64,000 nt of DNA, taken from assembly GCF_036588685.1 (NCBI RefSeq), contig NC_086375.1, positions 57,288,001 to 57,352,000 on the forward strand, read 5' to 3'. Positions 2,743 to 53,300 of this stretch are shown here, in pieces. Position 1 is the first letter of the stretch; each line of letters opens with the position of its first letter. The translations under genes and the position numbers were made by a program. The notes under the pieces were generated by a model. It worked only from the letters and a program-made list of their open reading frames with translations. It had not been told where the DNA came from and made no database searches. This stretch comes from Mytilus trossulus (taxonomy: Eukaryota).

Positions 2743-4183
<1,441 letters not shown>

Positions 4184-4834
4184 CATTTTCCGTCTAAACA
4201 CAAATAATGTTATTTAATAATGTTAGAGATTTCAGGATTCCCGACATCCTATGTCCTGGGCACTTCGACATCGATCAGTGTGCAACAGTCACTGAAATAT
4301 CGACCCCAAATCAAATTAAGGAGCAACTGAAACTAGTGGATTGTGCAATATGTTTGATTGAACTGAGAAAAATTAACAACACGGGTGTTACTATTGTGAT
4401 ATTTAATGTAATATAATATACTGTTTTTGTTTAGTTGTGTTTGTATTTAATCATAAATAAAAATATCTTGCAGATAATAGCTTTCCTTTCTGAATCATTC
4501 TTAATATAAAAAAAAAAACGCAATGATTTCATTTTTTTAACTTTAATTTGTCTCGGCTTTAATTTTTTGCATTTCTTTAGTTTTCACATTTTACAACAGA
4601 AATATATAAGATTAGAATAAATGTTTTATGAATCAGAATTTGAAATTGGACACACATAAATCGTTATGCAAAGATAGAACAATCATTGTACATTACCATT
4701 AATGCTGGAATGTAAATTAAAGCTATAATAAAGTTTAATGCACTTTAACTCAATTTGTTTCAAAATATCCCTTGTATTGAAAGAGGGACGAAAGATACCA
4801 AAGGGATAGTCAAACTCATAAATCTAAAACAAAC

Positions 4835-5870
4835 TTGATTTTTGTCTCACGAAAGTCAATTTTTGTCTCACGAAAGTCAATTTTGTCATCACAAAAATGA
4901 ATTTTGTCGTCACAAAATTGACTTTTGTGAGACAAAATTGACTTTTGTGAGACAAAATTGACTTTTGTGAGACAAAACTCAATTTTGTCATTTTTGTTGA
5001 GACAAAATTCAATTTTGTCATTTTTGTTGAGACAAAATTCAATTTTGTCATTATTGTTGAGACAAAAGTCAATTTTGTAAATTTTGTTGAGACAAAAGTC
5101 AATTTTGTTAATTTTGTTGAGACAAAAGTCAATTTTGTCAATTTTGTTGAGACAAAAGTCAATTTTGTTGAGACAAAAATCAATTTTGTTGAGACAAAAG
5201 TCAATTTTGTGACGACAAAATTCATTTTTGTGATGACAAAATTGACTTTCGTGAGACAAAAATTGACTTTCGTGAGACAAAAATCAATTTTGTTGAGACA
5301 AAATTCAATTTTGTTAATTTTGTTGAGACAAAATTCAATTTTGTCAATTTTGTTGAGACAAAAATCAATTTTGTCAATTTTGTTGAGACAAAAGTCAATT
5401 TTGTCAATTTTGTCTCACAAAAGTCAATTTTGTCTCACAAAAATCAATTTTGTCTCACAAAAATCAATTTTGTGTAACAAAAGTCAATTTTGTGTAACAA
5501 AAGTAATTTTTGTGTAACAAAAGTAATTTTTGTGTAACAAAAGTCGATTTTGTGTAACAAAAGTCGATTTTGTATGCAAATTAGTTCACAGAAACCAAAC
5601 TGAACTAATTTAAATACAAAATTGACTTTTGTCGCTCAATTTTCAAATTAGGTAACAAAAGTCAAGTCTGTGTAACAAAAATGAATTTTGTCATGACAAA
5701 AGTGACTTTTGTCCGCTGATAGATAATTTTGTATGACAAAATTTCAAATTTGTAGTATGATACAAATTTTGTTAAACTGAACTCATTTTTGTTGAACAAA
5801 AGTCACTTTTGTCCGTACAAAATTGAATTTTGAGTACAAAACCACAAGAGTCCCATTCGGCGCCCCGTAA
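4835..5870. repeat. Complex satellite of about 21/30-bp quasi-palindromic units with an internal inversion
   Basis: Repeated TTTTGT..ACAAAAGTCAA units in both orientations; exact 94-bp inverted repeat 4835-4928 / 5194-5287. Confidence 0.9.
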
Positions 5871-9205: not shown

Positions 9206-10611
<1,406 letters not shown>

Positions 10612-14630: not shown

Positions 14631-16451
<1,821 letters not shown>

Positions 16452-21098: not shown

Positions 21099-22918
<1,820 letters not shown>

Positions 22919-24450
22919 TGAAAAAAAATATGTTATTGTTTCACAGTTAATTTCAAACCAAAAGCAATACAGCTAATTGGTATGAGGCATGGGAAGGTTC
23001 CTCACGAACGAGCTATTATGCAGATTAAGAACGTGATTTTATCTACTTGTACGGATGTTGATATTTTTGTACAAATTACCAATATAAGCATCAAAGAAAA
23101 ATGATCAGAGAGTTCAGCACCAGTTTCAGTCAAACTATTTTGTTTACTTTTTCATTATTCAAAATGTTGTTACATTGTTTTTTTACTTTTCATTTATGTC
23201 ATGTTATAATAAAAATATTTAAAAAAACACATGATGTTGTACAGTCCCTCCGTCGCCTGTTGCTTTTAGTGTTGTTGTTAATTTACAAAAGGATAAACTA
23301 TATGGAAATTGTTCAATCCATTTAAGTTAAACGTTTATTAACTTCTTCGAACCAAGGTAATATCTATTCGACCTCATAGAAAACAGAAAGCGAATAAATC
23401 GAATCTTCGAAATTGATCGAACATATTTTTTGGGGTTATTTTTCTTTAAGTGAATTTATGAAGACATTTTTTTTCCATTTTGTACAATTGCAACACGACG
23501 GGTGCCACATTTGGAGCAGGATCTGCTTTCACTTTCGGAGCACCTGAGATCCCCAGTTTTTGGTTGGGTTTGTTTTCCTTAGTCTTTAAATTTCTATGTT
23601 GTGTCTTGTATACTATTATGTGTCTGTTTTTGTTTGTCTTTTTCCTTTTTACCTATGGCGTTGTCAGTTTATTTTCGATCTATGAGTTTAACTGCCCCTC
23701 TGGTATCTTTCGCCCTCTTTCACACTGACATTGTTGTATTCGTGCTGTATATATCAAAACATAATAGTATTGTGTCTTTAATGTTTGATGATATTCTGTA
23801 GCCAGATAGATGACTTGCATTCAAGTGATGCAAATAAAACAAATGTTTCCGGTGTATTTTTCGATGTAATTAGGACGTGTTAAAGCTTTCAAGAATATCA
23901 TAATATATGTATCCTAGCGACACAGTGCATTTATTTGAATATTATAGGTGCAATATCTTTTTTAATTTGCTTTAGTTTCAGAAAATTGTGTTAAGGGTGA
24001 AGCTGTCCAGTAGTAACCGTACAAAAACACTGTTTTAAAAGCCAAAGCTGCAGTTTTATTGTAGAAGCTGATAGCCGTTGTTTTTATACCCACTACCATG
24101 ACAACCAAAATCTTAAAGATATGTGTTGATTCGAAATACCATGTCGAACTTTCAATATTTATAACCTTTTCATATGGTACAAGCTGTTGTTGAAAGTTGG
24201 TGCGTATGACTACATATGTCTAACTTTGATAATCTTGTTTCAATGGCGTTTGCATCACATCTGTTATTATTTTTACACTGAAGGATTTTTTTATTTTTTT
24301 TTTTATCTCAAAGCAAAGTACGACACATGACAAATCAAGTAAACAGTATGCAATCTACAGTTTATCACACTATAGTTATATATCTAATACATACACATAT
24401 TAAGTAAATACAATTTCTTTATTTAGATAACACTTGTTAACTTTGTGAAG

Positions 24451-26705
24451 ATGACATTCAAAGTTGTTCTTGCTGTTTTGGTAATACTAAGTATACAATT
24501 TGTGTATAGTGTGGAACAGGATGCTTATAGTCTTCTGTTTACTGATAGCAAGGACGTGTTTCTGAATAAACCAATACATTTCCAGTATCCGTTGCAAAAA
24601 TGGCTGCGTGGCTCTCTGGTAAGATAATTTATTTCTAGAATCAAATAAGCTTCTTAATTCACGTTCCTTTCACGTGTGTTCTGTATTTGTATGTATCAAA
24701 GTTCACATTCAGGTTACAATCAACTAATGGATCATGAACTACTGTTTTTAGCTAATCATACGCAAGTTTATTGAATATTTGAATAATAATATGCAGTATA
24801 ATGCTATGTCGTTCAAAAGAATCCAAAGATAGCACCAAAGCTTCATGTTTTCATTTATATGTGTTAATAACATATTGCTTTTCTTTAATAGGATGAAAAT
24901 GTCTATTATTATCTTGTCCAACAAATTCAGGATAATGTAGGACATATACCAAAATAATATCCACAGTGACTCGCAACAAGCTTAGGAAAATTACTCTTAA
25001 TATTAAAATGTGTTTTACCATACATTTTGTTCCACTCAGTTGGTACCTATATTGCGTATTACACATTCGGATATTTTATGAACAGCTGTAGGAAATGAAG
25101 ATTCCCTATACCTTAATTTATATTATTGATTTACATCTTTTGGTTGCTGGATGGATCAATTTAAACTCATTTGAAAAATTACAACTATGATGTTTATACG
25201 AAAGAGTATAAAATAAATCTTTCTAAAATACTATGCTAATTAAAAATCATGTAGAATTATAAAAAAAATATCGACGTTGATGAACCAATATATATATTTT
25301 TTACCATTTACTCCAGGTACGAATAGGTCCAGCTATGTTTGGGATGGGTCAGAGAAATTTCACACACGCATATGATGGTTTTGGGAAAATTTATAACTGG
25401 AAATTCTATGGAAATGGATCAGCGTCTTTTTCTCAGGACTTTTTACGGTCTGAAACATACAATACTTCCAATGAAATAAAAGATATTGCCAATTTTTTGA
25501 CATTTGAAAGTGTTTCACCACCATTTCCATTGAATAGGCGTGAGATCTCTGTTTTGAATGGATTTGATAACACAAATGTTAATGTGTATAGATTATTCAA
25601 TGAAGAAAAGAAGTCATACGAATACATTGCATTAACAGATGCATGGAAGGTATACCAGTTCGAACCCACTTCTATAAATACCATTGGTGAAATTGATCCG
25701 CCAAACCCACGTGGAACATATATTGGATTTATTGATACAATGTCCTCAGCTCATCCCGTCCCAGAGTATAATTCTAGTTATCACTTTACATTTCTAACGA
25801 GTGTTAGTCTCATTCCTAAGGTCAAAAGTCGTCTATCGGTTATTAGAATGAAGTCGGCCTTTGAGCGAGAATTGGTAGCTCAGTGGGAAGTTGACAAAGC
25901 GCCTTATATGCATTCATTTTCTGTCACGCAGCGTTATGTTATACTATTCGCAGCTGCGTATTATACAAACATAGGTAAAATGCTGAAATATGCCAATGCG
26001 TATGAAGGTCTGGAATGGTTTCCGTCTGAAAAAGCCACTATTTATGTTGTTGAAATTAAAACTGGCAATATACATACTATCCAAACAGAAAATGGCTTTC
26101 CATCACATCATGTAAATGCTTACGAAGACAACAATAGAATTATTATGGACGTAACTATGTTTCAAGATCCTACTTATTCAAAAATATATGAACTTGATAC
26201 GTTGAGATCGCCTAATAAAAGACAAAACGCACAATATACACCACCAGTAATTAAACGTTATTCAATCAACTTGAATGCAACGAATGCAACAGTCACTACC
26301 TTTTCTCCTAATTCAATCTTTCCATTCATAAATAATTTTGATTTCCCGTGCATAAATGAAAAGTACAGACATCGTAGATATTGCTATATTTACGGCGTCG
26401 CTACCAAAAGAGACACCACATTATTTTCAAGTACAGCTTTAGTGAAAAAAGATGTTTGCGGAACAAACCAAGACAGTGCATTTGCTTTAGATAACCACTA
26501 TCCTGCAGATATGTGGTTCATACCTAATCCCAATTCCACCAGGGAGGACGATGGCGTTCTTCTGACTCCAGTTCTTGACGGAGAGAAAAAACAGAGTTAT
26601 TTGTTGATGCTAGATGCTAACACAATGGCTCCGATAAACAGAGGATATTTGCCGTCATTGGTTCCATTTACAATGCACGGACGATTCTTTTCAGATTTAA
26701 TTTAA
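24451..26705 (+). CDS. Carotenoid cleavage oxygenase (BCO/RPE65 family) paralogue 1, 518 aa, signal peptide (exons 24451-24618, 25317-26705)
   Basis: KWLRGSL|VRIGP, HAYDG, DNTNVN, four Fe-ligand His motifs (SAHP, YMHSF, HHVNAYE, MHGRF) and EDDGVLL; phase-0 GT-AG intron; hydrophobic N-terminus MTFKVVLAVLVILSIQFVYS. Confidence 0.92.
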
Positions 26706-28929
26706 CTGATTGTAGAGATATTTTGTTATAAAATTTAGAATTGAATAAAATTTTCAAAGTTATAAATGATACTAGTGATATGAAACAGAAATGAAAATGA
26801 AAGACAGACAACACAAGGACCAAATGAAAAACAGAGAAAAATAAACAAGCAACATTTTAGAATTAAAAAAAAAATGGTGTGATTGTCTATAAGACAAATC
26901 TCTATCCGAGATCAAACGACATAGAAGTGAACCATTATATGAAAAAAAACCTGTCCATAATAAACTGTACATAGATGCACAGAGTAAGCTTAACGAACAT
27001 CATCAATCACCAAGTGTGAAACACTAGTATGGATAGACGTTTATATTCGTCTAATGGTACACGTTTTGTTCCTCATTATGGTTATTCCTGTAAAACAGTT
27101 GTAGAGAAGTTACAATTCCTAACATATTATTCGATAGATTCGGAGACAAATTCATAAAATGCTATTGTCATTCGCGAACTGATTCAACATATAAAGCCCA
27201 CATAACTGTGTCAACATATTAATCAAGCCTTAACTATTTAGTTACAAAACATTATTTGATATTAAAGAAGGGATGTTAAGTTAATGCCAAGTTTTTATAA
27301 TCTTCTTTAGCACCTTAGTGAAGTATACATTTTATTTTTACAAGGAATCAGTAGGGGGTACCATATTTGTGTCGCAAAGGATTATCAAAATTTATTTATA
27401 TTTAAGGTCTCAGAGAATTCTATTTTTTAATATTATATCAAAGCGATTTTATTTAGTTACTATGTACAGGATATGAATAGTTCATTCATGAAGCAAGATA
27501 TGTTTTAGAGTTCATATGATTCCCTAAGTATTGGTTTTGATGTGCACCTTCTATATACATTTAAAGGGGCACTAGCTACGAGATATATAAAAAGTCTAAA
27601 ATATGAATTTTTTGGTTTAATCATTAACGAAAGTGAAATAGTGAAATAATATATCGCTTTTAGTAGCCGGTATGATTCAATTTTGTCAAAATATGCTAAA
27701 AACATCGATGATGATGGGATTTTAATATTGATACTATACTACCATTGACTCTTATTCAGATTTATATGTTTTTACGTTTTTACCTAGTATACCTGTTTGT
27801 TTTGATCTCACGTGGTTCATGATTGTTGTCAATATAATGGAATGTAATGCGACTGTTATTCAAGTGAGAGGTTTGGCTAGCTTTAAACCAGGTTTAATCC
27901 ACCATCCCAACATTAGAAAATACCGATATCAATTTCTCTTCGAGTTTTTATTATTCTACATTATCTTTCGAATATTTAAGTAGTCACGCTCATTCCCCTC
28001 GATTAATTCAGTTACACAGTTACTGAGAAATCTGGTTTTATTGCAGTTTTGTTGAACATATGATTTAGTTTTCTAAATTTGTTTGTAAGAACATTTACTT
28101 GAACACTCGTTATCTTATTAGGTGAAGGGAGATCAATTACTTCATCAACCAATCAAAACCTTGACCTATAATTTATCTTTTATCACATTCAAAATCATGT
28201 ATCACATGCATATATATCATATCAAGGTTTTATTTTGATAAATTATAAATTAACTTTGAAAAGGATTTCTTAATTCTATAAAAACAAGAAACACAACACT
28301 ATTTTTTATTCATGGGAACAGCTCTTCATACCATTAAGTTGTTTTTAGTCCATCTTTAATCGACAGAAAAAATTCTTAAATCAAATAAATCAACACCAAA
28401 CAGCATCCAACTTTTATCTTTGTTAAATGTTTTGTATTAACACATTAAAAATCACACACACATTTCAAAATTCTTTCATGTCATGTCTACCAAAATAAGT
28501 AACAAAATAACTTGAAAATAGCTACTAGTAATCTTTTAATTTGTAGGCGAATACATTATGCCCCCTCATTTCGCCTATTAACATATTATGATAGCGCTTT
28601 ACAGAATGAATATTGTACAGAGGGGGAAAAATCTGGGATACAAAGTCAAACAGAGGGAAAACATAAAAGATAAGTGGAAACAAAGGAACAACAGGAACAC
28701 TGAAGTGCATCAAAACTAACGCCATTCTACATATAAACGAAATATTTGGACATTAAACGACTGGCTTGACAAAACGAATTGGTTTATCAATGCGATGTAT
28801 CGGTTTCTCAAATCTCTGTACGACATGTTTTTGTGGTCTTTTATCTTGGAATATCAGAACAGTCGTATGATCTGTAATTGTACCGGTTACATTCTTTTGC
28901 TTATTGTTCAATTTTTACTGAGTGTGAAG

Positions 28930-29890
28930 CCTAGTAGACAGTACTGACATGAAAATACAGATATTGTGTTATTAAAATTTGTGCTTACAAAATGTTGTAA
29001 ATCAAGGAATCTATCTCCTTCATGCAAAGTTCTGTTTCATTGTCTGGTTTGGCTATCAATAGCTCATTACATTTTCAATAAGTTTTGGATCTTAAAATAT
29101 TTGGTCTAGATAATAACTCAAGTGTAATTCATTGTCGAAATGCGAATCTGGTGTAGAAAACTTGGTACTGTTATGATATTACTTTCACTTGGTAGATACC
29201 TCTACTTGGGGACTGTTAATTCACAACGGTATCATTACCTTGTAGCCAATAATGGATGCCGCCGACATGAAAATACGGATAATAAGCTGTTATGATTTTC
29301 TAATTCATTTTTATATATCTTAATCATGGAAAGAAGCTCTGATTCATTGCATGTTTTGAATATACTTTTTGCCCCCCTTTGGGTTATAAGCTCTTCATAT
29401 GTTTTATTAAGTCTTGTATTTTCAAATAGTTTGGACTAGAGCATCATTGATGAGTCGTTTGTTTTCGAATTGCGCATCTGGTGCAGGAACATTGGTATCG
29501 TTAATGTAATTACTACTACTGGGTCGATACCTCTGCTGGTGTTCTGTTGGTCCGAGAGGGTATTACCAGCGCAGTAGCGAGTACATTTGTAATTAAGTAC
29601 TGGCATGAAAAAAATAGAAAAAATAGTTTTATATTACTTTTAAAATAAAGGAATATATCGCCATCATGCATATAGTCTTTGATTCCATGTCCGGTTTTTA
29701 TGTGTTTTTTTTTAACTTATTTAAACTTTTTTTTTACGCGTTTTTGTCTTTGTTTGGTTTATAAGCTCTTCATATGTATTAAATAGCTAGTTTTGAATTT
29801 TCTAATGTTTTAGCCATGAGCATCACTATATATACTTTTATGGTCGAAATGCGCATTCGGTGCAGAACAAATAGTACCGTTAATATTATA
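28930..29890 (+). mobile_element. Degenerate tandem array (about 3 units) of family-2 retrozyme
   Basis: Decayed GAAATGCGCATCTGGTGC motifs at 29137, 29467 and 29846 (spacing 330 and 379 bp). Interior gggtcgatacctctgctggtg...gagggtattaccagc is homologous to 62260-62310. Confidence 0.7.
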
Positions 29891-30370
29891 AGCATCGCAG
29901 GAGATGCATGCACAACAGGAGATGCTTGACTTGTGGACGCAACTGGTCTCACTGTTTTGGGAATTCATGTGGTTTGAACATCGGTAAACTACTATCGCCT
30001 TAATTGTCTGCTGATTTCTAAAAACTCCCTTGAAAGTCTAACATGACTGAAAAGAAGTTTGATGTACTGTTACTGATATTCTGTTCAGCCCTTGATAAAG
30101 CACTAAAGTGAAACATTACTAATTATGAAATAAACTAATTCTTAACGACAGAGATTTCCTCGCTAGTATCCTTAGTGTCTCGAAACCCAACATCATTTAC
30201 TATAATCACATTTTATGAAGGAAGATGAGATCATCAGCAAATTCGAAATATTTTAAACAATTCCATTACAATTTCTCTAGACACGGAGAAAAACTGGCAG
30301 ATAGAATTCCATATTGAAAGTTATACTCACAACCATCTAGTCAGTAGAACATGCATTGTAGCATTCTAGA

Positions 30371-30593
30371 AAAGAGGGACGAAAGATACCAGAGGGACAG
30401 TCAAACTCATAAATCGAAAATAAACTGACAACGCCATGGCTAAAAATGAAAAGGACAAACAGACAAACAATAGTACACACGACACAACAAAGAAGAATAC
30501 ATAAAGAATAAACAACAAGAACCCTGTCAAAAACAAGGGGTGATCTCATGTGCTCCGGAAGGGTAAGCAGATCCTGCTCGACATGTGGCACCC
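30371..30593 (-). repeat. Dispersed repeat matching the 3' end of the Penelope-like element
   Basis: aaagagggacgaaagatacc...ctccggaagggtaagcagatcctgctc; related copies at 4779-4834, about 16005-16165, 23492-23720 (opposite strand), 30842-31000, 51261-51455, 63873-63909 and 37195-37320. Confidence 0.75.
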
Positions 30594-33271
30594 AGATAAT
30601 GTAGCAGATCGCACCAACAAAGATACGAATGAGAAAAAACTTATAAAGTAAGTTTCTTAAAATCAAAAAATGTTAGTACCATCAAGAAGTTTCCAGGTAA
30701 ACCAAAAGTTCAGTTTATTTCACATAATTAAAACTTAAATAGAAAATTAAACATTAAATTTTGGAAGCAATGAACGGCTTCTATAATATCATGCGTAGGC
30801 TAGCATCTATTATAACAGACTTTGACACAAGATGCTGATTTAAAAGAGGGACAAAAGATACCAGAAGGAGAGTCAAATTCATAGATAGAAAATAAACTGA
30901 CAACACCATGACTTAAAATAAAAAGACAAACAGACAGTTAATAGTACAGAAAACAAAACATAGAAAACTAAAGACTTAGCAACACGAACCCCACCAACAA
31001 AATATGATGAGGACAATATAATTACTATAAATAATAGAAGAGATTAGTATCATACGCGTTTTCAGTATTTTTGTGATTTTACTTTTTAGTGTCAAATTTA
31101 TCTTTAGCTGCAAAAATTAATGAACAGATACCACTGGCGTTGGTGGAGATATAAAACTTTTGAGTATTAAGGAATGGTTTATTAATTTTCATCAATTACA
31201 TATGATGCTAAACATTAAAATATCGTTGAGGAAACAATACAGTTTTAAATTGATTATTCAGCAAACGGAATACGGGGCGAGTGCTATAAACTATTCACGG
31301 TTTGACAGAAATTATGCAGAATATTTTGTTTAAAGGATGTATATGACATTATGTAGGAAATGAAAGAGACTGCCTGGGAAAATTAAAGGCTATCCAACAA
31401 GAACCCCAACACAAAACTTTGGTGCTAAAAATACTGCTCCAATTGTGACAACTGTCAAGTTGTCCAATGTTTGTACAAATTAGGTAAAAAAATAAAAAAG
31501 ACTCATCAGAATGATATCAGAATCGAGGTCTCAAAATTGTGGTTCTAATATTTGAAGAACAACTGTGGCGATCTTTGACACATATATTCTATAACGGTCA
31601 TTTATCTTTTCTAAGAATGAACGAAAATATAAATTAGCAAATAATTCGATATATCTTTTGTGGATAGAATGTAGTGACCCTTTTGTATTGATGTTTTTAT
31701 ATGCATCAACCTATGTCATATCTTTTTGAATATAGAAAGAGCCATTTTCTTATAGTTTTTGTCGCCTGCCAAAGAAAAGATCACGGAAAATAATTCAAGC
31801 CATTCGTTTTAAGCATTTATAGATATAGGGAGATGTGAGGTGAGTGCCAATGAGACAACTCTCCATCCAAAGCATTCATATAGTAATCGTCAAATGCGCG
31901 ACGAAGAAATATATCTATTTTTGGAGTGAAAATAAGAACAGCTAAACACTTTCTTAGTTATTCAGAATCATAACAAATTTTAAAACAAACATAAAAGACT
32001 TTCGCAAAAATATAATTAGCCCTTAAAAACGAGACACAGTTCTGAAAGATTGTCCATAGTATTACATGTGGAACATAAACAAAAGTTGTAACGAAAAAAC
32101 AAATACATCGTTCGTTGCGCTTACTCGATAATTAGATTCATACTGTTTCTTGTAGCTGATATCTTTCAGTGTCAATCACAAATAACCATGATAATCGCTG
32201 GAGTCAATCACAGAGCATTGCATGTTGATAATATATACAAAATCCTTGACAAAGATTTATCTAAAAATGCTTGCCTTGACTTTTTGAACTTTCCCCTTGA
32301 TCATATTGTATTTACCTAGTTAACGATATCATTATCTTAATTTTGTCATTGGTAGTATTTTTATTATCTCTGGTTCACTGTTCAAACGTTTTCTGATCTG
32401 ATTTAAACATGGGACTAATATATGGGGCAAAAACGAGAACAATTATTGCATAAAATCTTTTATTTCAAAATGCACTACCCGTAATTAAATTGGTGCTCTA
32501 GAATCATAGTACAACTGATGTCACTTTTGAATAACAAAATAATATCTATTTTAAAGCATGCAATAACAGAAAGTTTGCGTGCAGTGATGTTTTATTTTAC
32601 ACTATTGTGAATAAAACTGTAAATAAGGGCAGTAATGTTTCAAGCTTAGCTCTAAAATAACATGATATTTTGAATGATTACTGGTGAATATTATCTTTCG
32701 TAAAAAAATACCTTGACTCGCAAACTCGTGCAATACAAAAATATTCTCTAACTATATCCATGCAATAAAATGATTTAAAGAACTGTCATTAAGTGATTCA
32801 GATTTGATCATCACTAGACATGCTATTATTAGTGTTCTGTTAGGTAAGAATGCGACATTTGGTTGAGAATAAAGAAGTCGTGCATTTGTATATCACTACC
32901 AGTTTCCTCTGTTCAAAGAATGAAATAATAACTTGGCTGTGATAAAAGTCAAAATTTATGCAAAAAACCAACACTAACACTTATCTCAAAACAAGCTTAC
33001 TTAGGTAAAATAACTATGCAATATTAGTTTACATAATGACAAAGCATTACTTTTATATTATAAAAAAAATAAGTTGCGGTATCATTGGCAATGAGACAAC
33101 TCCTCATCATATCACGTAGAAGGTAATTATAGGGCATGTCAGTTTATGATATAGTAATGCGGTCACTATCAAAAGTAAGATACCAAATACATATAAAAGT
33201 GAATCTCCACATTATAAATTCACTTCATTCTGTTCAGTGATAGAACAGAACTGGTTAAAATACATTATTAA

Positions 33272-35531
33272 ATGGTGAACTTCGTTACTTTTGCCTTGGC
33301 GGCCGTCTTTATTGGCTTTTCAAGTTCTTTAGAAGATGATTTTAGCCGACTCTTTTATGACAACAAGGAAACGTTCGTAGATAAACGGATAGTTTTTGAA
33401 AATCCATTACCGAAATGGCTACGTGGTTCACTGGTAAGATATTTTCAATTTCTTGAATAAATCATTGGTATCCATCCTAATACTGAAAAAATTGCACATT
33501 GCACATCAACCTATATATATCTCAATAATTAAAGACCTACATTTCAAATAAGTATTTTGAAATTTATGATCTTTCAATGTATTTTTCAAGCAGTTTAACA
33601 TAAAAAATCACGAGACATATTTTTTTCAAATGCTTTACTCTTAAAAAACAAGCAGACACACACACATACTTGTTATGTATAGAAAAAAATGAACTGTCCC
33701 AGATGAAAAAGATGTCATTTACAAAAATGTTATCATTTTGAATTTCAGTTGCTAACATCATAGCTTTACAAGAGCCAGTTTAAATAAATCAATATTTGCC
33801 CTGCTATAAAAATCATGCCTTTATACAGTCAAATATAGTCACTTCAATTTAAAGCGGAAGGTTTAGTAAAAGGCTTCTCATTCATATTGAGAAGAACTTC
33901 TGTGAAGTTTGCATTTAGTGAATATAGAAACAAGCTGCAGAGAAGGCGAACACAGTTGGGGTTCATTAAAAACAATTAGTAATGGAGATGAGCATATTAT
34001 ATTTATTTCAGAGGTAAACTAATATGTAAACTTTTGTATTCAAAAGCGAAATTACTTTATGATACGCTGCAAATTATTATTTAGTTATAAAAACATTCAG
34101 TGTTTTCACGTCGATCACGAACTATATTTTCATTAATATTATTTACAGGTACGAACCGGTCCCGGGATGTTTGGAAATGGACCAAGAAATTTTACACATG
34201 CTTTTGATGGTTTTTCAAAGATTCACAGTTGGAAATTCTATGGAAATGGTTCAGCATCTTTTTCAACGAATTTTGTGCGTTCATCTGTCTATAACAATTC
34301 CATAAAAATAAACAATATTGACAATTACTTAACTTTCGAGAAGCCTATTCCACCATTTTCTTTAATGCAAGAGGAACTTGGGCTCTTGAAGGGAATGGAT
34401 AATATGAATATCAACGTTTATCGATTTTTGAATTCAGGTACGGGACAATATGAATATGCAACTTTATCAGATACATGGAAAATGTACCAAATAGACCCAC
34501 TTACGGTTGGAACCATTTCACCTGTAAATGCAATGAAACCATCAGTTCCACAAGACTTCGTTAGTTTGATGTCGTCCGCCCATCCAGTTCCGGAGTACGG
34601 CACAGGACACCATTTTACCTTTTTAACCAGCGTTAGTGTTCTTCCTGGAGTTCAGAGTCGATTATCACTCATGCGAATAAAATCTACACATGAAAGGGAA
34701 TTAGTTGCACAATGGGGAGTTGACAAGGCACCTTATATGCATTCTTTTTCTGTTACTCAAAATTACGTCATTCTGCTTGCTGCACCGTATTTTGTGAATG
34801 TAGAGTGGATGTTGAAAAATGCAGATGCCTATTCTGGGCTCCAATGGTTTCCCAAAGAAAAAGCTAATTTTTACGTTATTGAGATAAAAACTGGTAAAGT
34901 AACTGCTATCTCCACACCAATAACTAACCCTACACATCATGCAAATGCTTACGAAGAAGATAACAAAATTATAATTGATATATGCACAACTAAAGATCCA
35001 TTTTTCGCCACAACTTTTGAGGTTGGTGTAATTAGAGATGTAAACAAAAGAAATAAGGCAGACTATACGCCACTCTTCAGTCGATATACTATAAACGTAG
35101 AATCAAAAACAGCCATAGAAACAAAATTTCCACCTAATTCGTCGTTTCCTTTTCTAACCTATTTCGATATTCCTGCTATCAATGAAAACTATAGACATAA
35201 AAAGCATTGTTTTGTTTATGGCGTTTCATTTAAAAAAGACTTCAAATCTTTCGCTAGAACTGCACTTTTGAAAAAAGACACTTGTGGAAAAAATAAGGAC
35301 AATGCCTGGTCATTGGATGGGCATTTTCCAATGGAAATGTGGTTTGTTCCAAGACCAAACTCTACGGAAGAGGACGACGGTGTTCTACTCACTCCAGTTC
35401 TTGATGGAGCAAAGAAAGAAAGTTATCTGATGATACTCAATGCTACAACAATGACTGTGATGAATAGAGGTTACTTAAATACGTCACTTCCTTTCACCAT
35501 TCATGGTCGCTTCTTTCCGGATGTTGTTTAA
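33272..35531 (+). CDS. Carotenoid cleavage oxygenase paralogue 2, 514 aa, signal peptide (exons 33272-33433, 34149-35531)
   Basis: PKWLRGSL|VRTGPG, HAFDG, SAHP, YMHSF, HHANAYE, EDDGVLL, IHGRF; same intron position as paralogue 1; N-terminus MVNFVTFALAAVFIGFSSS. Confidence 0.92.
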
Positions 35532-50300: not shown

Positions 50301-53300
50301 AGAAACATGAAATCTATTTACATACATATTTCTGGTTAGTGGTTATTAAACTAAACAAACAATAAATGGGGAAATAAATATATTAAGTAGATTCTTGTGC
50401 TTGTATTATATATAATATAACAGAATGAAAATTACTTACGTATTTTGAGTAAATGCTTGTATTTTCTTTAATCCAGCAATCTGCATCTTTCCTAACCTGA
50501 CAAAAGAAAATCATTTGTCTTTTTGCAAGCAAGGACTAGGTGATTTAAATGTAAATCTAAGTAGAATAAAAATGGAATGGGGTGTTTATCAATGGAACAG
50601 TAAGCCAACAACATTAAAAAAAAAAAGAAAAAAGGGTCAACATTCCCTTTTCAACAAATAACCAGTGTCTATACAAATAAGCTAAAACTCAAATTGCCCA
50701 AGTCCTAAAAGGGTTCATCATAAAATTAAACAAGACTATCAATATCTTTTGTCAATTCTAAATTTTCCAGTAAAAAAAATATTAAGATGACACAAAGTCA
50801 ACCACTGATAATGTTCCTGGCTTTTCTAAAACATAAATATGTGGTAGGTAAAACTAGTCTATCACATGTTAATTTTTCAAAATTTCTTGATTCTTTTCAT
50901 AGAATTTTCTCTGAGTTTCTCCTGTGAGTTTTCATATCTTATCATTGTAACGATACATATACTATACAAGCTTTCATACCTTTTACAGAAGAATAATAAA
51001 CATAAGTTGACTACAAATAAGACTTACGTATTGTTAGAATTAAACATGTATGTAAAGAAATGTTCACTTTCTTCTAATATATCATACGGCACTATCTCAT
51101 TGATATCCTGCGAAGATGTTGACACTAAAAGTTTATTCAATTCAAGATTTATCTCATGGAAATATTGTCGTACAGTGTCCATATCACTTGATAAATTTTT
51201 ACACACTATATATCTGAAAGAGAGAAACAAAAATCTATTAGTATTTATAAATCCTACATAAAAGAGGGACGAAAGATACCAAAGGGACAGTCAAACTCAT
51301 AAATCTAAAAAAAACTGACAATGCCATGGCTAAAAGTGAAAAAGACAAAAAGACAAACAATAGTACACATGACAAAACATAGAAAACTAAAGAATAAACA
51401 ACACAAACCCCATCAAAAACTAGGGGTGATCGCAGGTGCTCCGGAAGGGTAAGCATAAAGTTATCATAAAAATCTAAAATATATAATAAAGTAATGCTGC
51501 AAATTTTGGTGACTATGTTGACCGAATTATCCTGCTGATCTTCAAATAAAGGATATCACAAATATAGTTCCATATCTTGACTAACATGTAGTAATCAACA
51601 GGAAGGATTGGTTGAGAACTTATCTTTATGGCATTTCCAACCAAGCTGCACATGTTTAAAGAGTTTCAGTTGATACAATATTTGAGGGCTGGGTATTTGT
51701 TTTATTATTTCCTTGATACTGTTGACAAGGAACTTTACAGAAACATTTAAGTATTGATTGAGTTATGAAATATACTTAGTGATTACAGTAATTATATGCT
51801 GAGTGAACTCTTCTTTAAGATAATGATAAATAAAGTGTGATTATTTACCTTTCAGAATTTGCTGGTCTACTGGTTACAGGTTTTATAATGGAGATTTTGT
51901 TAAATATTCTGTACATTAAGTAACAAAGACCTATGCTAAATGGTGTGAATAAATCAAACAGCTTGCATACAAAATGACCACCTGAAAAAAAAGTTGTGTA
52001 TCAATAAACAATGTAACAGTCTCCCTACTTCCTCACAAAGGTGAAGAATCATCCTATTTCAGTTCAATATAAAGGGGAATTAAGTTCTATATACCTGTAT
52101 TGTCATTGTGTTTTGTAAACATTACCCTTCACAATGATCTATCTTACATCTTTTTTCAGACCTTTTTTAATGTGCAAAATTGTTGTTTGCGTCTGAATAC
52201 TCAAAGTTGAAGTTCTGCCACAAAAAAGTGCTAGTTCTGAAAATTTACTAGGTTATGTTGTATTTCTGAAATAAGCAAGGTGTCTGCTATATTTACATTT
52301 ACTCATTCAACATTTTTGTAAATTTTTCCCTATTACAAATCTACTTTTATCTCTCAATTTACAAAACAATGCAATGATTATCATTAATACTGTGGATTCA
52401 TTTATTTTCGTGGGTACCAATTTTTGTGTATTAAGAAAAACTTGCATTTTCGTGGATATTTAATTTCGTGGTTTTGCTGAAGTCTGCATACAAACCTATA
52501 GAAAAATTATCATTCGTTGAATATTTAATTTGGTGGTTTGACTGTGCCCACGAAATCCACGAAAATTGGTATCCAACGAATAATAATGAATCCACAGTAA
52601 TTGATAATTATGTTTGTCTGGCCTACATTATACCTACCTGTCCTTAAAATAGAAATGGCCACCAGAAACTGGCAAAGATACAACTGCTTAGATAAAATTT
52701 CTTGAATATTCTCTTGCCCCTCCACTGAAAATCCCTGTAATTAACAAATAATGTAAATTTAAATTTTGCCAGTGATGCAACTGCATTAAAATTTACCGGT
52801 AATTGTATGATTTCACATCCGGTCAAATAGTATCAATATTTGAATAAAAATAATGATTTCTCAGTAGCAACACATTATAAAATTTTTAATAATGACCAAA
52901 GAGAAATAATAACCTGGCAAATTTACAGCAAACTATTTTTGTTCTGTATTGATAAGATAACCATTATTTAACTTATTCTTACCCCATCTGCCATTACAAA
53001 ATGTACACCTTTTCCATCAGTATTTTCTTTCACAAATTGTATGAAAGCTGCTTGATTATCTGGGTTAAATATGTCACCATCTCCTTCTGCACCTCCAACT
53101 CCTGTAAGACAAACCAATTTTAGTATAACTTTTATCAAAATATTTCAGAATGTAAAAACATTAAATAAAAAAACCCAAAAAGGCTTACTTGTTGGGAAGT
53201 TCAGCTTCCACCTTTTTGCATGAGACACAAAAACTAAAAAAAAATATACTGATGGAAAAATGATGTATATACATTTCAAGGAAACATTGACTTTTATAAA

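What the first reader, a model, noticed from the sequence alone, without database searches (positions are those of the whole stretch)
24451..35531. Pair of carotenoid-oxygenase-family enzymes that appear to be secreted glycoproteins
Seen: both paralogues begin with a 19-20 aa hydrophobic leader ending in a small-residue cleavage pattern (VYS|VE, SSS|LE). Each has 7 N-X-S/T sequons, four at equivalent positions (NFT, NGS, YN-x-S, NST). There is no obvious TM segment or KDEL, and all four iron-binding His are retained. Known: BCO1, BCO2, RPE65 and NinaB are cytosolic, mitochondrial or on the cytosolic face of membranes, and are not secreted. Inference: these are extracellular or lumenal non-heme-iron alkene-cleaving enzymes, for example acting on dietary algal carotenoids or phenolics in gut, mucus or haemolymph. 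They may belong to the poorly characterised invertebrate BCO-like (BCOL) clade.
Basis: partly seen in the sequence, partly recalled or inferred. Interest (0 to 1): 0.8.

Follow-up and report, generated by a model that had tools for sequence, protein, structure and literature searches.

The report
Mussel secreted carotenoid-cleaving enzyme pair
Two neighbouring mussel genes encode secreted enzymes that most likely cut dietary algal pigments; they belong to a family (BCOL) already shown in lancelets to be secreted and glycosylated, so this is mostly known biology, with one odd active-site residue in one copy.

Summary
Two intact two-exon genes (518 and 514 aa, 56% identical) each start with a 19-20 aa signal-type leader and have seven sequons and four iron-binding His. 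They are letter-for-letter identical to the Mytilus trossulus RefSeq proteins XP_063425813.1 and XP_063427376.1. Seven sequons is no more than chance (about 5 expected).

Both proteins match lancelet BCOLg (PDB 9PLV) far better than RPE65, NinaB or ACO. They nest with the molluscan BCOLs named in 2017 and show the BCOL marks: no PDPCK, second-shell Asp, the disulfide Cys pair, and a leader whose cleavage site aligns with BCOLg's. Signal peptides were predicted for molluscan BCOLs in 2017. BCOLg secretion was shown in 2020, and its glycosylation, structure, beta-carotene-to-retinal activity and gut transcript in a 2026 preprint.

My searches found no paper on the mussel pair. One detail may be new: gene A has Asp at all three second-shell positions (Asp454, conserved in five Mytilus species; Glu in 119 of 120 relatives). 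Substrate, tissue and secretion of the mussel proteins are inferred, not shown. New members of a known kind; low interest.

The parts
24451..24618 (+). Gene A exon 1 (aa 1-56): signal peptide and N-terminus; donor CTG|GTAAG
   Evidence: spliced product identical to XP_063425813.1 (518 of 518)
24451..24510 (+). Gene A predicted signal peptide, aa 1-20, cleavage VYS|VE
   Evidence: hydropathy and (-3,-1) rule; aligns without gap to the BCOLg leader, S20|V21 opposite S22|V23
24619..25316 (+). Gene A intron, 698 nt, phase 0, GT..AG
   Evidence: an unnamed 519-aa relative on a 1,646-nt contig spans the junction (P0132)
25317..26705 (+). Gene A exon 2 (aa 57-518 and stop): RPE65-family propeller; His202/255/320/510; Asp164/Asp398/Asp454; Cys412 and Cys437; VSPPF (122-126) in place of PDPCK; 7 sequons
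   Evidence: Pfam PF03055 E 8e-70; 9PLV 295 bits; AlphaFold model mean pLDDT 94.2
26508..26510 (+). GAT codon for Asp454, third second-shell position (Glu466 in BCOLg, Glu469 in RPE65)
   Evidence: Glu in 119 of 120 relatives; Asp in all five named Mytilus orthologues examined; alignment to 9PLV and 3FSN
26744..26749 (+). AATAAA 39 nt after the gene A stop, candidate poly(A) signal
   Evidence: use not tested
33272..33433 (+). Gene B exon 1 (aa 1-54): signal peptide and N-terminus; in-frame TAA directly before the ATG; donor CTG|GTAAG
   Evidence: spliced product identical to XP_063427376.1 (514 of 514)
33272..33328 (+). Gene B predicted signal peptide, aa 1-19, cleavage SSS|LE (alternative GFS|SS at 17/18)
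33434..34148 (+). Gene B intron, 715 nt, phase 0, same position as in gene A
34149..35531 (+). Gene B exon 2 (aa 55-514 and stop): RPE65-family propeller; His199/252/317/506; Asp162/Asp394/Glu450; Cys408 and Cys433; PIPPF (120-124) in place of PDPCK; 7 sequons
   Evidence: Pfam PF03055 E 4e-72; 9PLV 274 bits

Best explanation
A tandem pair of Mytilus BCOL genes from an old duplication that predates the Mytilus species. Each protein enters the ER through a cleavable signal peptide, is N-glycosylated, forms the BCOL disulfide, folds as a seven-bladed propeller with Fe(II) held by four His, and is secreted, having no TM segment or retention signal. Outside the cell, most likely in the gut lumen or digestive-gland tubules, it takes up solubilised algal carotenoids through the hydrophobic tunnel and cleaves a C=C bond with O2, giving retinal from beta-carotene or apocarotenals from xanthophylls. 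Shown here: gene structure, family membership, leader, ligands, Cys pair, predicted fold. Inferred from BCOLg: secretion, glycan occupancy, disulfide, activity. Inferred more weakly: gut location and xanthophyll substrates. My odds by step: BCOL 0.98, secretory pathway 0.93, active carotenoid cleavage about 0.8, gut lumen about 0.6.
For: 9PLV scores 295 and 274 bits against at most 116 for NinaB, RPE65, ACO or nematode BCMO. Careful ML tree: both in a 100/98 clade with the Lottia, Crassostrea and Octopus BCOLs of the 2017 paper, sister (99/92) to lancelet BCOLs including a BCOLg near-copy. The leader cleavage site aligns with BCOLg's. 53 of the 59 relatives that keep the exon-1 motif have a hydrophobic N-terminus. 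The named Mytilus models start with the leader in 5 of 6 cases for A and 5 of 7 for B; the rest are one fusion and two partial models. BCOLg Asn110, a resolved glycan site, aligns to A N105 and B N103. BCOLg is secreted from HEK293, cleaves beta-carotene to retinal and is transcribed in gut (PMC13734108). 8'-apoalloxanthinal, an oxidative cleavage product, is reported from bivalves (PMC3093257). A against B: pS 0.75 (saturated), dN 0.32, so an old pair under constraint.
Against: No expression, proteomic or activity data for the mussel proteins were found. The sequon count is not above chance, and only 1 of 4 BCOLg glycan sites is exactly conserved. Identity to BCOLg is only about 35-38% (relatives of that clade), so substrate and cleavage position need not transfer. 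BCOLg's gut-lumen role is itself a proposal based on gut RNA, not on protein found in the lumen. Gene A's Asp454 could impair its iron site.
Confidence: 0.68

Rival explanations
1. Same enzymes, different compartment: they act in the lysosomes or food vacuoles of digestive cells, or in haemolymph, mucus, gonad or mantle fluid, managing stored pigment rather than luminal food.
For: A signal peptide specifies only ER entry. Bivalve digestion is largely intracellular in digestive cells (recalled, no call). No tissue data were found.
Against: The one studied member is gut-expressed and released to the medium. No TM or retention motif.
Confidence: 0.17
2. Gene A is a weak or dead enzyme, or a carotenoid-binding protein, because Asp454 is too short to brace the fourth iron His; only gene B is a normal BCOL.
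For: Glu at this site in 119 of 120 relatives. PMC13734108 cites Glu-to-Asp changes at the other two second-shell sites as damaging in RPE65.
Against: All four His, both other Asp and both Cys are kept. A diverges no faster than B between M. trossulus and M. coruscus (478 of 518 against 479 of 514). Two distant unnamed relatives also carry Asp-Asp-Asp with all His and Cys intact. BCOLs already tolerate Asp at two sites by backbone shifts.
Confidence: 0.08
3. The substrate is a non-carotenoid alkene (stilbene, phenolic or lignin-like compound), as in lignostilbene dioxygenases.
For: Same superfamily. BCOLg's channel is described as open and possibly broad in specificity.
Against: The best-scoring solved relatives are all carotenoid or apocarotenoid enzymes; 5V2D ('Dioxygenase', recalled as a lignostilbene enzyme) scores 24.6 bits. 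Channel residues resemble BCOLg's: of 8 positions, A has F,Y,F,T,Y,S,F,T and B has F,F,F,S,Y,T,I,F, against F,F,F,T,Y,T,L,T.
Confidence: 0.05
4. Not secreted: an upstream exon or read-through from the neighbouring ARF gene removes or buries the leader.
For: One M. edulis model (CAG2235353.1, 688 aa) fuses ARF to gene A and skips the leader. A possible acceptor lies 25 nt upstream of A's ATG with no in-frame stop between.
Against: The other five named Mytilus models of A, including RefSeq for the same species, start at the leader. ARF has its own stop (22918) and AATAAA (23208). B has an in-frame stop directly before its ATG. Leaders are family-wide.
Confidence: 0.02

Closest known systems
BCOLg of Branchiostoma floridae (PDB 9PLV; PMC13734108, PMC5643517, PMC7221588)
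   Same: Signal peptide with aligned cleavage site, four His, Asp at second-shell sites 1 and 2, disulfide Cys pair, xxPPF in place of PDPCK, short blade-IV loop, glycan site Asn110.
   Different: Distant in sequence (319 bits over 510 aa). Three of its four glycan sites are not exactly kept. Gene A has Asp where BCOLg has Glu466. Several channel residues differ. Mussel proteins are untested.
Molluscan BCOLs of the 2017 paper (Lottia XP_009063032.1, Crassostrea XP_011418795, Octopus XP_014781013.1)
   Same: Same 100/98 clade, 41-45% identity for their clusters, TargetP signal peptides reported in Table 1.
   Different: The pair forms its own 100/100 subclade of 11 rows and is not the one-to-one orthologue of any of them. 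A third Mytilus BCOL group (P0037, P0170) lies elsewhere in the tree.
Archaeal NdCCD (Nitrosotalea, PDB 6VCF)
   Same: Second-best sequence hit (149 and 141 bits) and best Foldseek hit (TM 0.82/0.93, rmsd 2.2 A; 9PLV did not appear in that library, which ends April 2026).
   Different: Glu second shell, DPCRS loop, no disulfide Cys pair; shorter, 472 aa.
Canonical metazoan BCO1/BCO2/RPE65/NinaB
   Same: Pfam RPE65 fold and four-His iron site. [quoted passage not shown]
   Different: They have PDPCK, three second-shell Glu, an extra blade-IV loop (about 20 residues inserted in RPE65) and no signal peptide; scores are at most 116 bits. The RefSeq names are misleading.

Membership tests
CCD/RPE65 superfamily | Pfam RPE65 domain above the curated cut-off | tested here: met
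   236.6 and 244.3 bits, cut-off 27
CCD/RPE65 superfamily | Seven-bladed propeller fold | tested here: met
   Gene A model pLDDT 94.2; TM 0.76-0.82 (query-normalised) to 6VCF, NinaB, RPE65, ACO. Gene B was not modelled.
CCD/RPE65 superfamily | Four iron-binding His | tested here: met
BCOL | Falls inside the clade spanned by named BCOLs | tested here: met
   Careful tree of 72 chosen rows rooted on 16 unnamed three-Glu-type relatives: 100/98 with three molluscan BCOLs, 99/92 with lancelet BCOLs. No canonical BCO/RPE65/NinaB row was in the tree.
BCOL | No PDPCK motif (VDPPF in BCOLg) | tested here: met
   VSPPF in A, PIPPF in B
BCOL | N-terminal secretory signal peptide | tested here: met
   Hydropathy, (-3,-1) rule and gap-free alignment to the BCOLg leader. 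SignalP itself was not available.
BCOL | Asp at second-shell sites 1 and 2 (BCOLg Asp167, Asp408) | tested here: met
   A Asp164/Asp398, B Asp162/Asp394. A also has Asp at site 3.
BCOL | Disulfide Cys pair (BCOLg Cys422-Cys449) | tested here: met
   A Cys412/Cys437, B Cys408/Cys433; 117 and 116 of 120 relatives. The residues are present; the bond itself was not tested.
BCOL | No metazoan blade-IV loop | tested here: met
   RPE65 has about 20 inserted residues at this place relative to A, BCOLg none
BCOL | N-glycosylated and secreted protein | not testable with these tools
   Sequons present, 1 of 4 BCOLg sites exactly aligned; occupancy needs an experiment
BCOL | Carotenoid cleavage activity | not testable with these tools
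   Shown only for BCOLg
Canonical BCO1/BCO2/RPE65/NinaB | PDPCK palmitoylation motif | tested here: not met
Canonical BCO1/BCO2/RPE65/NinaB | Three second-shell Glu | tested here: not met
   A D/D/D, B D/D/E

The most novel reading that the evidence does not exclude
Gene A is an active CCD whose whole second coordination shell is Asp (Asp164/Asp398/Asp454), a state not described in the main text of the BCOLg preprint. The change was fixed in Mytilus after the duplication and retunes the iron site or cleavage position. A and B would then split the work on the mussel's xanthophyll diet (fucoxanthin, diadinoxanthin, alloxanthin) in the gut lumen, and be the missing source of bivalve apocarotenoids such as 8'-apoalloxanthinal and a control point for mussel tissue colour.
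Probability: 0.2. Interest if true: 0.45.

Novelty: new member of a known kind. Interest (0 to 1): 0.2.

Why it matters
The idea of a secreted, glycosylated animal carotenoid oxygenase is already established with a crystal structure, so these genes add little conceptually. They have practical value. They are two soluble, secretable mollusc BCOLs for testing the untested claim that BCOLs digest algal carotenoids in the gut, in a farmed species whose colour and nutritional value depend on carotenoids. The A/B pair is also a natural Asp-versus-Glu comparison at the third second-shell site. The RefSeq names (retinoid isomerohydrolase-like, BCO1-like) should read BCOL.

Tried and rejected
1. Sequon excess as proof of glycosylation: rejected (p = 0.26 and 0.23). 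Family-wide, 59 full-length relatives average 4.1 sequons per 500 aa against 2.8 in 25 short three-Glu relatives, only a modest shift.

2. Prokaryotic relatives in GTDB genomes: the single-protein scan found 42 pattern matches and none was confirmed. The alignment query had no stretch conserved enough to run. The outgroup was therefore taken from unnamed hits; that they are prokaryotic is inferred from length and likeness to NdCCD.

3. A third BCOL copy or remnant in the window: tblastn with five relatives found only the two genes.

4. ARF-BCOL fusion as a real protein: judged a prediction artefact (see rivals).

5. Asp454 as unique in the superfamily: rejected; two distant unnamed relatives (P0320, P0322) also have it.

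6. Structural comparison with BCOLg: 9PLV was not among the Foldseek matches listed (library ends April 2026), so the geometry of Asp454 was not examined.

7. Literature on the mussel genes: four searches listed none; two searches on second-shell mutants gave nothing on the third site. Whether scallop PyBCO-like 1 is a BCOL could not be told from the passages read.

8. dS between A and B is saturated (pS 0.752), so no dN/dS ratio could be given.
Full report
**Observation.** The region holds two genes on the + strand, each with a short first exon and a long second exon split by a phase-0 GT..AG intron at the same codon. Gene A is 24451-24618 plus 25317-26705 (518 aa); gene B is 33272-33433 plus 34149-35531 (514 aa). 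They are 56% identical. The spliced proteins are identical to the Mytilus trossulus RefSeq proteins XP_063425813.1 (518 of 518) and XP_063427376.1 (514 of 514), and 92-97% identical to orthologues in M. edulis, galloprovincialis, californianus and coruscus. tblastn finds no third copy in the window.

Both begin with a hydrophobic leader that fits the (-3,-1) rule at VYS|VE and SSS|LE; neither has another 19-residue hydrophobic segment or a KDEL-type end. Shuffling gives 5.3 and 5.0 on average (p = 0.26 and 0.23), so the count alone is not evidence. The four iron His are present and invariant in a 115-row alignment.

**What it is.** Both second exons match Pfam RPE65. Against solved structures the best hit is lancelet BCOLg, 9PLV (295 and 274 bits), then archaeal NdCCD 6VCF (149, 141). 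NinaB, RPE65, ACO and nematode BCMO follow at 116 bits or less. The AlphaFold model of A has mean pLDDT 94.2 and matches CCD propellers at TM about 0.8; 9PLV was not among the listed matches in that library, which ends in April 2026.

I built a careful ML tree of 72 rows that I chose from about 330 fetched proteins, mostly near-full-length rows; near-duplicates, most fragments and one 978-aa row were left out. It was rooted on 16 unnamed three-Glu-type relatives. A and B sit in a 100/100 subclade of 11 rows, inside a 100/98 clade with the Lottia, Crassostrea and Octopus proteins named as BCOL in 2017. That clade is sister at 99/92 to lancelet BCOLs, including P0217, a near-copy of BCOLg. A and B each have their own sisters outside the named Mytilus rows, so the duplication predates the Mytilus species; synonymous sites are saturated and dN is 0.32. 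No canonical BCO1/BCO2/RPE65/NinaB sequence was available for the tree; those were compared by score and motif only.

**BCOL marks.** PDPCK is replaced by VSPPF (A) and PIPPF (B), against VDPPF in BCOLg. BCOLg's second-shell Asp167 and Asp408 are kept (A Asp164/Asp398, B Asp162/Asp394). Its disulfide Cys422/Cys449 are kept (A Cys412/Cys437, B Cys408/Cys433). RPE65's blade-IV insertion is absent. The leader of A aligns without a gap to BCOLg's, with the cleavage sites opposite each other. Of BCOLg's four glycan sites only Asn110 aligns exactly (A N105, B N103); A has sequons 2-4 residues from two others.

Of the 120 relatives listed, 59 keep the exon-1 motif PxWxxG, and 53 of those 59 have a hydrophobic 10-mer of at least 1.9 (my threshold) in the first 35 residues. 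None of 25 short three-Glu relatives does. I left 7 longer three-Glu rows out of that control, and 4 of the 7 do have hydrophobic N-termini, so leaders are not confined to Asp-type proteins.

**What is in print.** PMC5643517 (2017; passages and one section read) defined BCOL, noted the missing PDPC(K) and reported TargetP signal peptides for oyster, limpet, octopus, sea-hare, annelid and lancelet members. PMC7221588 (2020; passages) found BCOLg unpalmitoylated and secreted from HEK293F cells. PMC13734108 (bioRxiv, October 2026; parts 1-6 of 8 read, supplement not seen) reports the 2.4 A structure, four N-glycans, the disulfide and the two Asp. It also reports symmetric cleavage of beta-carotene to retinal at about 32% of human BCO1, six BCOL transcripts in lancelet gut, and proposes luminal digestion of algal carotenoids. 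Its main text does not mention Mytilus or mussels, and four library searches listed no paper on the mussel genes; the library lacks most subscription journals. PMC3093257 (passages) reports 8'-apoalloxanthinal in bivalves and fucoxanthin-derived pigments in mussels. PMC11012205 (passages) describes a canonical, PDPCK-bearing scallop BCO2, so bivalves also have the intracellular type.

**How it most likely works.** Shown here: anatomy, family, ligands, predicted fold. Inferred from BCOLg: ER entry, leader cleavage, N-glycosylation, disulfide, secretion, and Fe(II)/O2 cleavage of a carotenoid double bond. Inferred more weakly: action in the gut lumen on solubilised algal carotenoids, giving retinal or apocarotenals. 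Channel residues are close to BCOLg's but differ between A and B, which fits divided substrate ranges without showing them. The rivals are another compartment (0.17), an impaired gene A (0.08), a non-carotenoid substrate (0.05) and loss of the leader (0.02). The last rests on one M. edulis model that fuses the upstream ARF gene to A and skips the leader; the other five named models of A start at the leader.

**What may be new.** Gene A has Asp454 where BCOLg has Glu466 and RPE65 Glu469, so all three second-shell residues are Asp. This column is Glu in 119 of 120 relatives; the exception is A's own orthologue cluster. Among 181 of 264 aligned rows that keep four His and both Cys, 7 are D/D/D: five Mytilus A orthologues (one identical to the window) and two distant unnamed proteins. 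A is conserved as well as B between species, so decay is unlikely. The preprint's supplementary Table S2 covers Glu-to-Asp changes in BCOLs and could already list this. I could not measure the geometry.

**Verdict.** These are new, untested members of a known kind. Interest 0.2. The triple-Asp variant has about a 0.2 chance of mattering functionally and would then deserve about 0.45.

Noticed in passing
window 836-22918 (+): Tandem array of about five ARF-family GTPase genes, with exon sets near 836-1443 (5' part probably before the window), 2762-4177, 9206-10605, 14631-16445 and 21099-22918 (tblastn; Pfam Arf on three exons). An ARF-like expansion directly upstream of the BCOL pair.
   Followed up: partly
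P0128 (CAG2235353.1, M. edulis); window 21099-26705: A 688-aa gene model fuses the last ARF gene to BCOL gene A and skips the leader; probably a prediction artefact.
   Followed up: partly
P0092, P0124, P0103, P0108, P0116, P0118, P0119, P0121, P0234: Some BCOL relatives end in KDEL-like tails after a C-terminal extension (HYEL in two lancelet proteins; KSEL, KGEL, NTEL, KVEL, KQEL and KDEL in an unnamed group). This suggests an ER-retained BCOL subgroup; KDEL is not mentioned in the main text of PMC13734108.
   Followed up: no
P0320, P0322 (unnamed): A distant pair, far from Mytilus in the tree, also has Asp at all three second-shell sites with His and Cys intact: an independent origin of the gene A state.
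   Followed up: partly
unnamed rows such as P0245, P0247, P0273, P0293, P0297, P0307, P0310, P0282: Deep-branching relatives at about 30% identity with hydrophobic leaders, most with the Cys pair, fall outside the mollusc-annelid-lancelet clade. Secreted CCDs may reach well beyond the published BCOL range; their taxa are unknown.
   Followed up: no
window 24414-24450: A pyrimidine tract and AG 25 nt upstream of gene A's ATG, in frame and without a stop up to the ATG; possibly a 5' UTR intron acceptor.
   Followed up: partly
P0037, P0170 and cluster 7: Mytilus has at least a third BCOL group on other scaffolds (about 41% identical to A and B), with several copies.
   Followed up: partly
window 23500-23720, 30370-30593, 30841-31000, 51259-51455: Dispersed copies of a roughly 200-nt repeat (78-88% identical) lie before and between the two genes and elsewhere; probably a short mobile element.
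   Followed up: no
window 4816-5517: Low-complexity tandem repeat giving open frames on both strands.
   Followed up: no
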